From NCBI GenBank assembly GCA_903813345.2, contig CAIIXF020000001.1, positions 14,322,001 to 14,386,000 on the forward strand: a stretch of 64,000 bases of DNA, in the 5' to 3' direction. The notes under the pieces were generated by a model, which was not told the DNA's origin, made no database searches, and was given only the letters and a program-made list of their open reading frames with translations. Each line of letters opens with the position of its first letter. Position 1 is the first letter of the stretch. Below, piece after piece: positions 1-54,480 of the stretch. The DNA is from Owenia fusiformis. Lineage: Eukaryota. The translations under genes were made by a program, and so were the position numbers.

Positions 1-844
1 AAAACAGAGAATCTAATTCTTATGGCCTAACCATCATTACCCAAGATAAATTGCTAAGCTTTATCAATCATCATCATACTGAAACCCAAGAAAGTCATTG
101 ACCCAAATATAATTGATATAATTTAAGGTAGATTTATTAATATCAAAAAACAAAGACATTATGTTACTGAAGGGCATTCAATGTTTGCTATTATTACACA
201 CAAACTGACCTTCAAACCATCTTATTAAAGCTATCTATCTGAGTAAGCCTATCATCAAAGGGAGGAAAACTAGTAAAGCCAATCAGCTATATAAATCAAA
301 GGGCCATCTCTTTATTGTATCTTGCATTTTGGATCAAAATATCAATCATTTTTTATAATTCTGCAGAAATCAGATGAAACTTTGATCAACTGTGAATCTT
401 TAGTACATGAGAGACCAGGCCCTGGAAATATTTGTCTAGGAAAGTATGACAAGGCCTGTGAACTCAATTAACACCCTTTTACTTTTTTATGGCTAGATAT
501 GCCCGTCTATTTGATACTGTCTAAATTACAAGTTAATTCTTATTCAAAGCAGACCTCTGTAAAACAAAAGAACTATTATAGCAATGACAATAACAATAGC
601 ACTGAACTGAGGAAGAGAATTACATTAACCGATTATTTAGGTTTAAATTAATGTTTATGAACCTTACCATTTGCAATGCGGATCTGAGATCTTAGTCGAG
701 ATACTTATCAAGTGTATAATTAGAAAGTGGATCAAACTGATTGCCTTTTGTAAAGAAATGTCAAAGACAGCTACAGTTATGTCAATAAATTGCAGATCTA
801 GTTCCTACTTTTCAAAGTGCAGTTAACCCTATTTGAAGGTGGTA

Positions 845-1998
845 CAATATCACATTTAATCTATTATTAACCTGATATGTAATATCCCCAAATGCCAATA
901 CCAAATATCACATTTTAACCCATTAGAAACCTAATATGCATTGTTGTATCCCCAAATATCAATACTAAATATCACTACTAAATATATACCAAATATCACG
1001 TTTTAATCCATTATAAACCTAATATGCATTGTTATATCCCCATATATCAATACAAATATCACATTTTTAATCTATTACTAACCGGATATACATTTTAATA
1101 TTCCCAAATATCAATACTAAATATCACATTTAACCCATTAGAAACCTAATGTGCATTGTAATATCCCCAAATATCAATACCAAATATCACATTTTAATCC
1201 ATTACTAACCTAGTATGCATTGTTATATCCCCAAATATCAATAACAAATACCACATTTTAATCCATTAGAACCCTAATATACATTGTTGTTTCCCCAAAT
1301 ATCAATACCTAATATCATATTTTAATCCATTATTAACCTAATATGCATTGTAATATCCCCAAATATCAATACTAAATATCACATATTAATCCATTAATAA
1401 CCTGGTATGCATTGTTATATCCCCAAATATCAATACTAAATATCACATATCAATCCATTACTAACCTGATATGCATTGTTATATCCCCAAATATCAATAC
1501 TAAATATCACATATTAATCCATTACTAACCTGGTATGCATTGTTATATCCCCAAATATCAATACTAAATATCACATATTAATCTATTACTAACCTAATAT
1601 GCATTGTTGTATCCCCAAATATCAATAACAAATACCACATTTTAATCCATTACTAACCTAATATGCATTGTAATATCCCCAAATATCAATACTAAATATC
1701 ACATATTAATCCATTACTAACCTGGAATGCATTGTTATATCCCCAAATATCAATACTAAATATCACATATTAATCCATTACTAACCTGGTATGCATTGTT
1801 ATATCCCCAAATATCAATACTAAATATCACATATTAATCCATTACTAACCTGGTATGCATTGTTATATCCCCAAATATCAATACTAAATACCACATTTTA
1901 ATCCATTACTAACCTGATATGCATTGTTATATCCCCAAATATCAATACCAAATATAACATTTTAATCCATTACTAACCTGATATGCATTGTTGTATCC
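845..1998. repeat. 64-bp tandem array (about 18 copies) built from the last 21 nt of the exon, the donor site and 43 nt of intron
   Basis: Unit TAACCTGGTATGCATTGTTATATCCCCAAATATCAATACTAAATATCACATATTAATCCATTAC; TAACCT recurs at 1974, 1910, 1846, 1782, 1718, and so on. Confidence 0.97.
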
Positions 1999-2100
1999 AG
2001 GATGGTCCAAGTCATGGCAGATGGCGGAAGTTATGAGAATTAAGACATCTATATCATCTAAAATTGTTGGCAAATCAAGCAACCATGTCAATCCATACAT
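1978..2100 (-). CDS. PDE9A: PDE9-like exon (123 nt, phase 0-0): MYGLTWLLDLPTILDDIDVLILITSAICHDLDHPGYNNAYQ
   Basis: tatgttgcag|ATGTATGGA...TATCAG|gttagt. Contains the class I PDE signature HDLDHPGYNN. Confidence 0.97.
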
Positions 2101-5100: not shown

Positions 5101-5203
5101 AATTATGACCCGAGACATTGTCTGAGGATTTAGCCAACCCTAAGACAATAACTAAAGGTTGAGATGACAAGACATTTACTGAGGGTTAGGGAAAGGAGAG
5201 TGG

Positions 5204-5414
5204 CCACGAAGCAGTGTTTGGAGTTGTGAAATGGTACTATCTTATACTCACCATTTGTGTGACCATGAAGCAGTGTTTGGAGTTGTGAAATGGTACTATC
5301 TTATACTCACCATTTGTGTGACCATGAAGCAGTGTTTGAAGTTGTGAAATGGTACTATCTTATACTCACCATTTGTGTGACCATGAAGCAGTGTTTGAAG
5401 TTGTGAAATGGTAC
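5204..5414. repeat. 59-bp tandem array (about 3.5 copies) built from the last 45 nt of the exon and 14 nt of intron
   Basis: Unit CCATGAAGCAGTGTTTGAAGTTGTGAAATGGTACTATCTTATACTCACCATTTGTGTGA; donor GT at 5369/5368, 5310/5309 and 5251/5250. Confidence 0.97.
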
Positions 5415-5465
5415 TTGGTTGTAACCTCTGTAAATTTCAAACAGCCATTGTTCTAACACTGAGAT
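5370..5465 (-). CDS. PDE9A: PDE9-like exon (96 nt, phase 0-0): ISVLEQWLFEIYRGYNQVPFHNFKHCFMVTQM
   Basis: ttatttcag|ATCTCAG...CAAATG|gtgagt. PFHNFxHCF motif of class I PDEs, PDE9 form. Not in the ORF track. Confidence 0.95.
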
Positions 5466-8302
5466 CTGAAATAATAAGAATCAATACCATATTCTAATAA
5501 CTTTTAATTGATTAATATAACATACTAGCAAACATTAAATCTAGGCCTGTGAAATTTAGCTTTAACATGACAAAATGTCACCACCTAGTTGCTCACAATA
5601 TTGTTACAGACAATGATCGCCAACTGCCAATCGCCAACCGCCATCACAAAAGATGGAGACCATAACAATATGTCACCACTTTTTTACAAATACATTTGTA
5701 TTATATAAAATTGCACATAGTATAACAACGATTGTAATTAAGTTGATACACTAAAAAGTATGAATCAATTGATTATACCAATCAATGTCAGACACATGGA
5801 CAAACATTATATCACATTTGCACTGATTGTTAATATTGACAGTCAACTTGATCAATAAATTTACATTTATTTTGGCATGATCGGTCAATAGAGACTTAAA
5901 CATTGATATCAAACTGTGGGTTAAACTTGCAGGGAATCTATAGTATGTATATCTATAGTACTATTATATATATTACATGTATGTATATCTAGCTAATGTT
6001 CAGGAAGCAATGTGTGTTGTATGTTGACATTCGGATGTTTCTTCCAATATCTCTGTTAAGTGATGTACTTTTAGAATAGCCAGGAAAGTTGTCCAAATCA
6101 ATTGTTCTTTGGGGCCTTTTACCTAAACATATAGCATCCATGTATCCTGATATTCTTTGAAAAACCTCAGTCTGTAATCATTCCATATAACGTCACCCAT
6201 TGGTGTCATTCTCATGTGTCATTCCCAACTTTATATTAAGATTTAACCACAAAATTACTTTGAATTGTAATACAAGAAAAAAATTGGTGATAAGGATGGC
6301 GCTTGACGCAGCTGTCTGGAGGCAACAAAGTACATGGTTATCTATTACCCAATAATAAGACTGATTATTGAGCCTTGTGTCTTTCGTTGCTTTTATAAAG
6401 AACCTGATTAAGCACCGTAGGAGCACAATGGTGATATCATAATACGGGGATTATATCTTATGACTCTACTGTTAGCAGTACTTGGCCTGGAGAATTGATT
6501 AACTTGAATCAAAAGGCTAGATCTGAATCTAGATGAAGGTCAAACTAAAATTGGTTAAAGTCAAACAGAAATTAGTTAAAGTGCCTGGGAAAATAGACTG
6601 CAAAACAAATTATAAAAGATAAAAAGCAATTTCCTAGTATAGTAGTCATTTAAGTTTAACCCTTCAATTGATTTCCCTCTATGTTTTTAACTAAGTGTTT
6701 ACTAGTTCATGACATGCCATCCAACAATCAGTGATCATTCTAATCCTTAAACAATATCAAACAAAAATAAATTTGCTTCGATTACAGTTATATGTTCTTA
6801 TCACACAATTTCAAGTGCTACGCCACAAGTTTCTCACATTCTGTTTTCAGTGTGGCAGTGGAATCTTTGTAAATGAGCGTAGTTGGTCCTCAGGCTCCGG
6901 AAACAAAAATTGAAGGTATAAAGGTATAATGCATCATTATTGTAGAAATTTTGTTAGATTAACGTGGTTTGAAAAATAAAAGTTAATAAAAGTTATAATG
7001 TAAGAAAAAACAAAACAAAAATGTTTTTTTTAGAAATAGAATAGTTTAAACTGGAATATTGACAAAATAGACTTTGTTACCCCAGTCAAAAGAAAACAAG
7101 TCCCATGCATTAAAGAACATCCAAACTGGATCACTTTCCCAAATCGCAATACGTAGGAACCCATCACCCACTACATGTAGGGTGATCTATTAATTGAAAG
7201 ATTTGTCTAACCTATACTCTAAGACTGTTTCAAATTGTATCCTCTAAAAGTTGAGCCTTGTCACAATTCCTTTAAAATGCTAATAATGAATGCAATTTTT
7301 CTAGTTATATATATTATACAATATGTGTCAAATTTTGCAAAATTAGTTTGGACAAAAAACATCATCATCAGTTGAACTCGGAGCCTGGAGACCGGCTACA
7401 CAATGGTTCCACTTCGACCTGGTATGTTTTGCAACTAGCAAATATTTTTCTATAAATGAACTGAAACGAGGCCATAATGTCTCACAAAGAGTGAATTCGT
7501 GTGAATTAAGCCAGAATAGAGGAAATTGTTCCCAAGATAATAATTGTAATATTGACCGCAAAAAAGTTCCAAGTTCGTCCCAGTATGCATTAAAATTTAA
7601 GAGAAAAGAAAATCGTATTACTAATTGACCTGTGTGTATACCTTTGAACAGTATGACAAATAATGATGATTTTCTTAGCCTCTTAAAGGAGTATGTATTA
7701 TTAAAAACATTGAAATAAATGCGAGGACTGCATTCTGATACTCATAGCATCTCTCTCTGTTGTATCTTCTCCATAAGATGTGGATTACTCGAAAAGAAAT
7801 TTAATGTGAAATAACCTAGTGAACAGCTCTAAAATCTGAATAACCCTTAAGTATATATAAGGTGAATGGATCCCAAATGAGAGTCAATACCATATACATG
7901 TACAGTATATATGACATTTTCAATAAGAGGATTATGAAAGACATAAACCTACAATTGGAAGTTTTCTATTACTATACAGTCAAAACAATCATATTGTATA
8001 AAAGAAAATTTAGATTTTCTTCACATTCAAATAATCTTCAATTCAAAATAAGATTTGGCTTGTCTCACATCTCTGCAAAATTTAATCAGTAAAGGCTGCA
8101 TTTGATCCAAGTTTAAAGGTTCCTTTGTAATCAACCATTGAGCATTGTTTCCCATTGGAATTATTTGGACATCTCTAATTCATATGAGCTTTTTTCTCTA
8201 TTCCCTCGATTCAATGAATATTTACTTGCTGTAGCAACAAAATCTAACACTTAGAATCTCTGATGTTGTAATGAGAAAGGAATCTTAATTAGAAAAGTGA
8301 AT

Positions 8303-30071: not shown

Positions 30072-31113
30072 AAAACCAGAACAACGGCAACGCCAAAGCG
30101 TAGCGAATCCCATCGAACAGAAATGGCTGGCATTTTTACAAACGAAGCGCAAATATCATAAAACAACACACCAGAAAGGCCACCATTTTCAAAATGGTTG
30201 CTCACTAGCCAAGTTGTCATCAGGAGAAATAATATGCTTTTAAGTAGCCACCTCTAAAATTTTTGAAAAATCGCACACATGCTTGTTAAATAACACACAT
30301 AAAAATGGTGGCCATTTTTCAAAATGGCCGACTACTCCCTAAAGTTTTATTAGACAATGTGCCATGCTTAAAGTATTCACATATCAATTATGAACAAAAT
30401 CGCTCCACTACTTTTCGAGTTATAGTAAAATACGTTAAAATGGCGGCCATTTTTCAAAATTGTTTTCAAAATGGCCGCCTTCTACCAAAAGTGTCATAGG
30501 ACAGTGTGCCATGCTTATAGTATTCACATACCAAATATGAACAAAATCGCTCGACTACTTTTCGAGTTATTGTAAAATACGTTAAAATGGCGGCCATTTT
30601 GAAAAATGGCCACCTTCTTCCAAAAGTGTCTTTAGACAGTGTGCAATGCTTATAGTATCCACATACCAAATATGAACAAAATCGCTCCATTACTTTTTGA
30701 GTTACAGCAAAAATCGTAAAATGACGAGTAAAGGCCGCCATTTTTCAAGATGGCTGCCATGTGCTTCTTTAATATCTACATTTGTAGCATTATTAACGTC
30801 CTTTATAATTTTTTTACATTTAAAACATATTGCTATTACAGTTTACATATTGCACCTAAATTACTGTAAAATCTTCACTAAAATGGCCGCCATTTTGAAA
30901 TGAGCGGCCATTTTGAAAATCAGCTTTCGAGCAGAACTTCTAACCCCATAGGGTATATGTGTACAAAATATGAACAAAATCTGGCCAACCGTATTTGAGT
31001 TATTGCCCGGACGGACGGACGGACGGACAGACGGACGGACGTACGTACGTACGGACGGACGGACGGACGGAGGCGTTCCCTATATCCCTCCGAACTTCGT
31101 TCGATGGGATAAC
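30072..31113 (+). mobile_element. Helentron-associated-like (HINE/DINE-type) non-autonomous element
   Basis: Internal tandem core repeats of about 135-147 bp with AAAATGGCGGCCATTTT palindromes, (GGAC)n microsatellite at about 31009-31070, terminal hairpin TATCCCTCCGAACTTCGTTCGATGGGATA. Confidence 0.8.
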
Positions 31114-53695: not shown

Positions 53696-54480
53696 ACTAG
53701 AAAAACAGCAACTCCACGGAGTAGCAAATCCCACCGAACAAAACATATTATGCTTATTATAGCTAGTGCAAATGTTGAAATGTTTGTGCACTTTGTGATA
53801 GAAGCATGAAATTTGGCACAAAGTTAGTTTATACCATTGTGAACTAGGCATCATCATATGAAATTTGAACCAAATCCGTTCACTGGTATATGAGTTATCA
53901 AAGATTACGTTTTTTACGAAAATTGGCCGCCATCTTAAAATTCAGCCGCCATCTTGAAAATTATTTGTTGCACAGAGCTACTGTGTCCCTAGGCATAATC
54001 ATATAAAATTTCAACCAAATCTGTTCACTGGTATTTGAGTTATCAAAGATTACGTTTTTTACGAAAAATTGCCGCCATTTTAAAATTATGTGGCCATCTT
54101 GAAAAAATTTTGTCGAACATAGCCACTGTGTCCCTAAGCATCATCATATAAAATTTGAACCAAATCCATTCACTGGTATTTGAGTTATCAAAGATTACAT
54201 ATTTTTACGAAAAATGGCCGCCATTTTGAAATTAAGTGGCCATCTTGAAAATCTCTTTTTGTGCAAAACTCCTTTGTCCCTAGGCATCAGCATATAAAAT
54301 TTGAACCAAATCCGTCAACTTGTATTGGAGTTATCAACTATTACATTTTTTACGAAAAATGGTGGCCATTTTGAATTGAGCGGCCATATTGAAAATTCCT
54401 TCTCGAGCAGAGGTCCTACACTCATAAGGCATAATCCTATAAAATTTGAACCAAATCCGTCAACCGGAACTGATTCGGTT
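53696..54480 (+). mobile_element. Related HINE-like element, 3'-truncated, about 4-5 core repeats of about 145 bp
   Basis: 5' end CAGCAACTCCACGGAGTAGCAAATCCCACCGAACA resembles 30085-30119; TTTGAACCAAATCC recurs at about 53864, 54009, 54153, 54300, 54444. Confidence 0.78.

What the first reader, a model, noticed from the sequence alone, without database searches (positions are those of the whole stretch)
845..1998. Ladder of about 17 extra 5' splice sites: minisatellite seeded on the donor of the HD-motif exon
Seen: the 64-bp unit is the exon's last 21 nt (GGATACAACAATGCATATCAG, GYNNAYQ) plus GTTAGT and intron sequence. About 7-8 copies keep CAG|GTTA (e.g. near 1910, 1846, 1782, 1718, 1526, 1462, 1398); others carry TAG|GT. 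Copies next to the exon are most homogeneous and distal ones decay. Reading past the true donor gives VSNGLKCYIWY-stop. Established: competing donors with the same core sequence can be used, and a premature stop upstream of further junctions triggers NMD. Inference: array length could tune the fraction of productive PDE9 mRNA, or the spliceosome ignores near-identical decoys by position. Each unit also carries AG|GT, the substrate of the tandem-duplication model of intron gain.
Basis: partly seen in the sequence, partly recalled or inferred. Interest (0 to 1): 0.75.

Follow-up and report, generated by a model that had tools for sequence, protein, structure and literature searches.

The report
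Splice-donor minisatellite in annelid PDE9
A 64-base piece covering the end of an exon and the start of its intron in a marine worm's PDE9 enzyme gene is repeated about 18 times, leaving a row of look-alike splice signals that are probably ignored, an arrangement already known from human and lancelet genes and common in this genome.

Summary
A 64-bp minisatellite (window ~845-1998, minus strand) starts on the last 21 nt of the PDE9 HD exon and repeats its donor 17 times. Six copies have the identical 9-mer CAG|GTTAGT. Using any of them would add a stop 11 codons past the exon.

The architecture is published: human F7, CBS, 6-16, LMNB2 and PDGF, and amphioxus 'mirages'. In F7 only the first donor is used whatever the copy number. 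It is also common here: 15 of 202 sampled exons and the neighbouring PDE9 exon carry such arrays, and this scan reported the same kind at eight other loci of this genome.

Decoy donors vary as much as the rest of the unit. About 7 RNA reads reach the exon end and none shows in the array, which is too few to exclude minor leakage. Intron gain is unsupported: there is no pyrimidine tract and the intron is old.

Best reading: a neutral array with silent pseudo-donors. The one lead is genome-wide: such arrays look 2-3.6-fold more frequent than uniform seeding predicts, but the samples chosen afterwards give only 1.4-2.8-fold (P 0.02-0.28).

The parts
1978..2100 (-). 123-nt PDE9 coding exon carrying the HDLDHPG metal-binding motif
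   Evidence: phmmer best hits PDE9A, E 1.7e-12, next family 2.7e-6; 100% identical to annotated annelid proteins P0004-P0006; acceptor and donor context
1972..1980 (-). Authentic 5' splice site CAG|GTTAGT (GT at 1977-1976) of a 6,635-nt phase-0 intron; the next exon lies outside the window, starting at G000:C1:14317342
   Evidence: P0004-P0006 join ...NAYQ to INART...; boundaries
845..1998 (-). 64-bp minisatellite of about 18 units (21 nt exon end + 43 nt intron start); the first unit overlaps the exon; units decay towards the intron
1460..1916 (-). Six pseudo-donors with a 9-mer identical to the authentic one (last exon-like base 1914, 1850, 1786, 1722, 1530, 1466), interleaved with two TAG|GTTAGT copies (1658, 1594)
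866..1404 (-). Nine more diverged pseudo-donors (1402, 1338, 1274, 1210, 1146, 1083, 1019, 931, 872)
1942..1944 (-). In-frame TGA, 11 codons past the authentic donor; it would be included in any mRNA spliced at a decoy
   Evidence: translation
5200..5415 (-). Second, independent donor-spanning array (59 bp x 3.7, 98% matches) on the preceding PDE9 exon (about 5465-5370, HNFKH motif)

Best explanation
This is a selectively neutral boundary-spanning minisatellite (a 'mirage'). Step 1, inferred from anatomy: a 64-bp tandem duplication happened to straddle the exon end, so the first copy kept the exon and its donor intact and all extra copies fell into the intron. Step 2, inferred from the divergence gradient: slippage or unequal exchange expanded it, with the most recent turnover near the exon. 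Step 3, shown in human F7 and inferred here: the spliceosome, defining the exon from its upstream acceptor, takes the first suitable donor, so the pseudo-donors stay silent or nearly so. Step 4, established knowledge: any rare decoy product carries a stop 11 codons in and should be removed by NMD. The array is spliced out with the 6.6-kb intron and has no function.
For: The same architecture is published with only the authentic donor used in F7, LMNB2 and PDGF, and F7 choice was unchanged with 1-12 monomers (PMC1557585). Amphioxus mirages are reported not to disturb splicing (PMC3087553; PMC3902484). All 3 annotated proteins use the authentic donor. RNA depth is zero in L015 6681-7682 (window 681-1682) in 3 of 3 runs. 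Depth in the bin holding the exon end (0.47, 0, 0.31 over 334 nt, about 157, 0 and 104 bases) equals what about 4, 0 and 3 reads give on the exon's 39 nt alone (my arithmetic). Donor 9-mer columns have 0.78 variant alleles per column against 0.78 for the other 55 columns. Boundary-spanning arrays occur on 15 of 202 Pfam-matched exon segments (PDE 9 of 78, kinase 2 of 45, myosin 4 of 79) and make up 23 of 111 arrays in 445.6 kb. The adjacent PDE9 exon has one too.
Against: The RNA test is underpowered: about 7 reads at the exon end, no NMD block, and the PDE9 junction itself is not among the 15 joints shown (134 more were not shown). With 0 of about 7, decoy use up to roughly a third is not excluded. 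In human CBS and 6-16 the nearest two pseudo-donors are used, and here the nearest four are perfect 9-mer copies. The annotated proteins are gene models and show only the main product. Boundary arrays appear more frequent than a uniform-seeding null predicts, so 'happened to straddle' may understate a bias.
Confidence: 0.76

Rival explanations
1. Leaky but unselected, as in CBS and 6-16: the nearest one or two pseudo-donors (1914, 1850) are used at a measurable level. This gives +64 or +128-nt mRNAs with a premature stop that NMD removes, slightly lowering PDE9 output without being a regulatory device.
For: Units 2-5 have a 9-mer identical to the authentic donor. CBS and 6-16 use two pseudo-sites besides the authentic one (PMC1557585 introduction). 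NMD would hide such products in ordinary RNA-seq (established knowledge).
Against: No RNA depth in or attributable to the array among about 7 reads. F7, LMNB2 and PDGF use only the first site.
Confidence: 0.17
2. One reading: copy number sets the fraction of productive PDE9 mRNA through decoy splicing and NMD, and this is selected.
For: The anatomy permits it: every decoy product has a stop right after the HD motif. The best-preserved decoys lie nearest the exon.
Against: No excess conservation of donor columns. Under upstream-first selection, copy number beyond the second unit should not matter (F7 constructs). The same arrays sit on donors and acceptors of kinases, myosins and at least seven other PDE regions, which suggests a mutational habit and not gene-specific tuning. 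Copy-number variation was not shown here.
Confidence: 0.04
3. The AG|GT in each unit acts as a new acceptor, giving recursive splicing or the first stage of Rogers-type intron gain.
For: 15 of 17 decoys carry YAG|GT. Mirages have been proposed as a route to intron gain (PMC3087553).
Against: The pyrimidine fraction before the decoy AG is 0.36-0.45 (17 of 17) against 0.52-0.76 at 10 real acceptors of the gene (some of those windows are offset by 1-3 nt). No exon sequence follows the AG, so splicing to it would only regenerate the donor. The intron position is shared with other animals (9 of 13 non-self records read AYQ|V).
Confidence: 0.02
4. Assembly artefact.
For: Tandem arrays can be mis-sized in assemblies, and no single read or contig spanning the array was seen.
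Against: Units differ by 0-14 substitutions with a gradient. Contigs of a second DNA sample cover all array bins, and one breaks 30 nt inside unit 1, as expected for a repeat in a 31-mer graph (inference).
Confidence: 0.01

Closest known systems
Human F7 IVS7 37-bp VNTR (Borensztajn et al. 2006, PMC1557585; read: abstract, introduction and passages of results, discussion and methods)
   Same: The first monomer spans the exon-intron boundary, the authentic donor is followed by identical pseudo-donors, and the array lies in the intron.
   Different: 64 bp x ~18 against 37 bp x 5-9; 21 nt of exon per unit against 4; copies here have diverged (6 of 17 identical); splicing and length polymorphism are tested in F7 and barely here.
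Human CBS IVS13 (15-20 units), 6-16 intron 2 (25 pseudo-sites), LMNB2 (100 bp x 10-15), PDGF intron 4 (81 bp x 16-18); seen only as summarised in the introduction of PMC1557585
   Same: Donor-side minisatellites of the same unit size and copy range; PDGF (81 bp x 16-18) is nearly the same scale.
   Different: CBS and 6-16 use the two nearest pseudo-donors. No such use was seen here, on very few reads.
Amphioxus 'mirages' in Adh3, globins BflGb6/BflGb9, troponin C and PGBD5 (PMC3087553 and PMC3902484, passages read; the Adh3 and troponin C papers were not read)
   Same: Invertebrate tandem duplications of 5' or 3' exon boundaries, units 10-160 bp, several per genome, edge units excluded from homogenisation, normal splicing retained.
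   Different: An annelid, not a cephalochordate; more copies than the globin cases (3-6); here a sample gives a frequency (about 7% of exons), which those passages do not.
Intron gain by tandem duplication of an AGGT site (Rogers model; PMC3265369 and PMC4974935 seen as search listing and abstract start only)
   Same: The duplicated unit contains AG|GT.
   Different: The AGGT is an existing donor, not an exonic proto-splice site; there is no acceptor context and no new intron results.

Membership tests
Boundary-spanning minisatellite ('mirage', F7-type) | Tandem array whose terminal unit spans an exon-intron boundary | tested here: met
   Unit 1 = last 21 nt of the exon + 43 nt of intron
Boundary-spanning minisatellite ('mirage', F7-type) | Splice signal reiterated in the intron | tested here: met
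   17 copies, 6 with the identical 9-mer
Boundary-spanning minisatellite ('mirage', F7-type) | Unit of minisatellite size (10-160 bp in the published cases), locus-specific | tested here: met
   64 bp; all 7 matches of a 201-nt query in the genome lie in this array (that search skips very common words)
Boundary-spanning minisatellite ('mirage', F7-type) | Length varies between alleles | tested here: inconclusive
   The second DNA sample covers the array only in short contigs; the tool states depth is no copy number
Boundary-spanning minisatellite ('mirage', F7-type) | The authentic site remains the main one used | tested here: inconclusive
   3 of 3 gene models use it; about 7 reads, none in the array; junction row not shown
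Rogers-type intron gain / recursive splice site | The duplicated AG has acceptor context (pyrimidine tract) | tested here: not met
   Pyrimidine fraction 0.36-0.45 against 0.52-0.76
Rogers-type intron gain / recursive splice site | The intron is new and lies between duplicated exonic AGGT sites | tested here: not met
   The same intron position is implied in 9 of 13 other-species records; the array is 1.15 kb of a 6.6-kb intron
Regulated unproductive splicing (AS-NMD) | The alternative event introduces a premature stop upstream of later junctions | tested here: met
   TGA at 1944-1942; at least 5 further coding exons follow
Regulated unproductive splicing (AS-NMD) | The unproductive isoform is made and rises on NMD inhibition | not testable with these tools
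   No NMD-inhibited run among those listed; low depth
Regulated unproductive splicing (AS-NMD) | The alternative site is conserved | tested here: not met

The most novel reading that the evidence does not exclude
In this annelid, splice junctions are preferred birthplaces or refuges of minisatellites. About 7% of coding exons carry a ladder of copies of their own donor or acceptor, 2-3.6 times more than uniform seeding predicts. That would imply a splicing- or exon-chromatin-linked duplication bias and thousands of natural F7-like experiments in one genome, enough to test position-based splice-site choice for both donors and acceptors from RNA-seq alone. The PDE9 array is one instance; the same exon end appears independently duplicated in three other animals' records.
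Probability: 0.3. Interest if true: 0.55.

Novelty: new member of a known kind. Interest (0 to 1): 0.2.

Why it matters
The locus alone adds little: it is one more F7- or mirage-type array. Its value is as one of a large class in this genome. If the frequency seen in my sample holds genome-wide, this animal offers a large natural panel for asking how the spliceosome chooses among identical sites by position, and whether tandem duplications arise preferentially at exon edges. A side consequence (inference): 8 of 17 units carry TAG where the exon has its last codon CAG, so gene conversion from the array could create PDE9 null alleles.

Tried and rejected
RNA structure masking the decoys: window 1700-2100 (minus) folds worse than all 100 shuffles (z +3.0); rejected. 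Selection on decoy donors: none seen. Acceptor or recursive use: rejected on pyrimidine content. Direct junction count: attempted but defeated by low PDE9 expression and by interspersed repeats in the intron, which filled the shown tables. Only about 6-12% of each raw run was read, and the three RNA runs are one study. Point-coverage null: splice sites are covered by arrays less often than random intron bases (15 observed, 27.6 expected), so there is no excess by that measure. Enrichment over the seed null is not significant for kinases alone (2 against 0.8-1.1) and borderline at best for myosins alone (4 against 1.4-3.3; P 0.05-0.41). Dropping the PDE gene that prompted the survey gives 13 against 4.2-7.0 (P 0.0004-0.03). 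The first coding exon(s) of PDE9 (residues 1-29) were not located. Literature searches that found nothing: (0 papers). Searches listed no annelid report of such arrays (20 of 2,339 and 15 of 98 titles seen; the library lacks most subscription papers). PMC10078293 passages concern other mechanisms and were not used. Supplements were not opened for any paper.

Full report
Observation. Tandem Repeats Finder reports a 64-bp array (15.8 copies, 90% matches) at 986-1998 with a decayed continuation to about 845. On the minus strand there are 18 donor-like sites from 1978 to 872. The first is the real end of a 123-nt exon (2100-1978). Of the 17 extra copies, 6 have the identical 9-mer CAG|GTTAGT, 2 more keep CAG|GTTA, 7 have TAG|GT, 1 has CCG|GT and 1 has a shifted GT. 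The 9-mer occurs nowhere else in the window. Divergence from the consensus grows away from the exon (rho 0.79, P 1e-4). A 201-nt piece of the array matched only this locus in the 499.5-Mb genome (7 of 7 matches, a search that skips very common words).

The gene. The exon's best structural relatives are PDE9A chains (E 1.7e-12; next family 2.7e-6). It is 100% identical to three proteins named as Owenia fusiformis, on a contig of the same length as C1. Aligning these proteins to the window and 40 kb beyond placed 14 exons. All three proteins join ...NAYQ to INART..., the next exon lying 6,635 nt downstream, outside the window. Reading past the donor gives 11 residues and TGA (1944-1942), so every decoy product would lose most of the catalytic domain. 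In 9 of the 13 other-species records I fetched (of 102 hits) the frame runs off as AYQ|V, so the intron position is old.

Is it real in other DNA, and is it spliced? I laid three raw RNA runs (one study) and the contigs of one DNA run on L015, which is window -5999 to 4000. DNA run X2, a different sample from the best holder and visibly another allele, has depth in all array bins. Its exon contig ends at L015 7969, 30 nt inside unit 1, the break expected where a repeat begins in a 31-mer graph (inference). No record spans the array, so copy number is unknown. PDE9 is barely expressed in the RNA runs: depth on the next exon is 6-7, 0-1 and 2-3. RNA depth is zero over window 681-1682 in 3 of 3 runs. 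The bin with the exon end holds about 157, 0 and 104 bases, which about 4, 0 and 3 reads on the exon's 39 nt would explain (my arithmetic). The junction row itself was not among the joints shown. This is compatible with sole use of the first donor but excludes only heavy decoy use.

Signs of function. Donor columns vary as much as the rest of the unit (0.78 against 0.78 variant alleles per column), so there is neither preservation nor purge. The region is not unusually structured (z +3.0). The AG of each unit has no pyrimidine tract (0.36-0.45 against 0.52-0.76 at 10 real acceptors) and no exon sequence behind it, so acceptor use or intron gain is unsupported.

How ordinary is it here? The preceding PDE9 exon has its own donor array (59 bp x 3.7). 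A family search showed tandem hits in another PDE, which proved to be a 112 bp x 13 acceptor array. I then surveyed exon segments matched by Pfam profiles: 78 PDE hits outside PDE9 (of 96 rows, the rest being PDE9 or repeat copies), 45 of 144 kinase hits (short matches chosen by me) and 79 of 92 myosin hits (the cluster of duplicated exons at C9:37.986-37.994 Mb and one long match left out). That is 445.6 kb in all. Arrays of period 15 or more and score 80 or more were inspected by eye (the output was partly cut). Boundary-spanning arrays sat on 9, 2 and 4 hits, 15 of 202. Eight more sat on exons of the same genes that were not in the hit lists, making 23 of 111 arrays, both donors and acceptors.

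Enrichment. Against a null in which arrays seed uniformly and one unit must straddle the site, 15 were observed against 4.1-7.0 expected (ratio 2.2-3.6, P 3e-5 to 5e-3). Kinases and myosins alone, chosen after the idea, gave 6 against 2.1-4.4 (ratio 1.4-2.8, P 0.02-0.28). Against plain intron coverage there is a deficit (15 against 27.6). Exon ends were approximate and two boundaries per hit were assumed. Enrichment is therefore suggestive only; commonness is solid. Three unnamed records from other animals (P0001-P0003) show tandem copies over this same exon with different units, but that search kept only frames of 73 residues or more, which favours such cases.

Comparison. Borensztajn et al. 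2006 (PMC1557585; abstract, introduction and passages read) describe this arrangement in human F7. They show that only the most upstream functional donor is used with 1-12 monomers, and list LMNB2 and PDGF (authentic site only) and CBS and 6-16 (two nearest pseudo-sites also used). Ebner et al. 2010 (PMC3087553, passages) and the PGBD5 paper (PMC3902484, one passage) describe amphioxus 'mirages' at 5' and 3' boundaries that leave splicing intact. I took the mirage lead from earlier notes of this scan and checked it in those two papers. Those notes list eight other loci of this kind in the same genome; I did not re-examine them. My searches listed no annelid report. The array works like, and belongs to, this class; the two features left open are length polymorphism and exclusive use of the first donor.

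Verdict. A real new member of a known kind, most likely neutral with silent pseudo-donors (0.76), possibly slightly leaky (0.17), unlikely a tuned NMD dial (0.04). Interest 0.2. The genome-wide frequency and possible seeding bias is the only part that would merit a dedicated analysis.

Noticed in passing
window 5200-5415 (minus): The preceding PDE9 exon (HNFKH motif) has its own donor-spanning array, 59 bp x 3.7 with 98% matches, so two consecutive exons are each seeded.
   Followed up: partly
G000:C1, window-equivalent -6379 to -6483 and -10753 to -10857 (L008, L009): Two similar 105-nt exons encode the same active-site segment; P0006 uses one, while gene models P0004 and P0005 contain both. 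Already noted by the scan as e1-7275413.
   Followed up: no
L012 3743-5198: Another PDE paralogue has a 112 bp x 13 array over the acceptor and about the first 70 nt of its HD exon.
   Followed up: partly
L017, L027, L028, L030, L031, L032, L033, L036, L042, L052, L056, L074, L075, L076, L078, L082, L088, L090, L092: 22 further boundary-spanning arrays (periods 29-260 bp) on PDE, kinase and myosin exons. L032 has three donor-type arrays, one being a second copy (7220-7514) of the 59-bp array away from the matched exon; L090 has three on successive exons.
   Followed up: partly
P0001, P0002, P0003: Unnamed records of other animals show tandem copies over the same PDE9 exon, with units of about 53, 17 and about 40 residues, implying independent origins.
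   Followed up: no
L065 1496-1805: Two adjacent near-duplicate kinase exons of a GSK3-like gene (family name recalled), candidate mutually exclusive exons.
   Followed up: no
G000:C9:37986009-37994334 (minus): About twelve separate matches to the same part of the myosin head profile (positions about 18-84) in one gene region, a large cluster of duplicated exons.
   Followed up: no
window 30302-30918 and 53844-54460: Satellites of 145-147 bp with the AAAATGGCCGCC motif; similar units recur in L021, L085 and L095, suggesting a dispersed, probably transposon-borne family.
   Followed up: no
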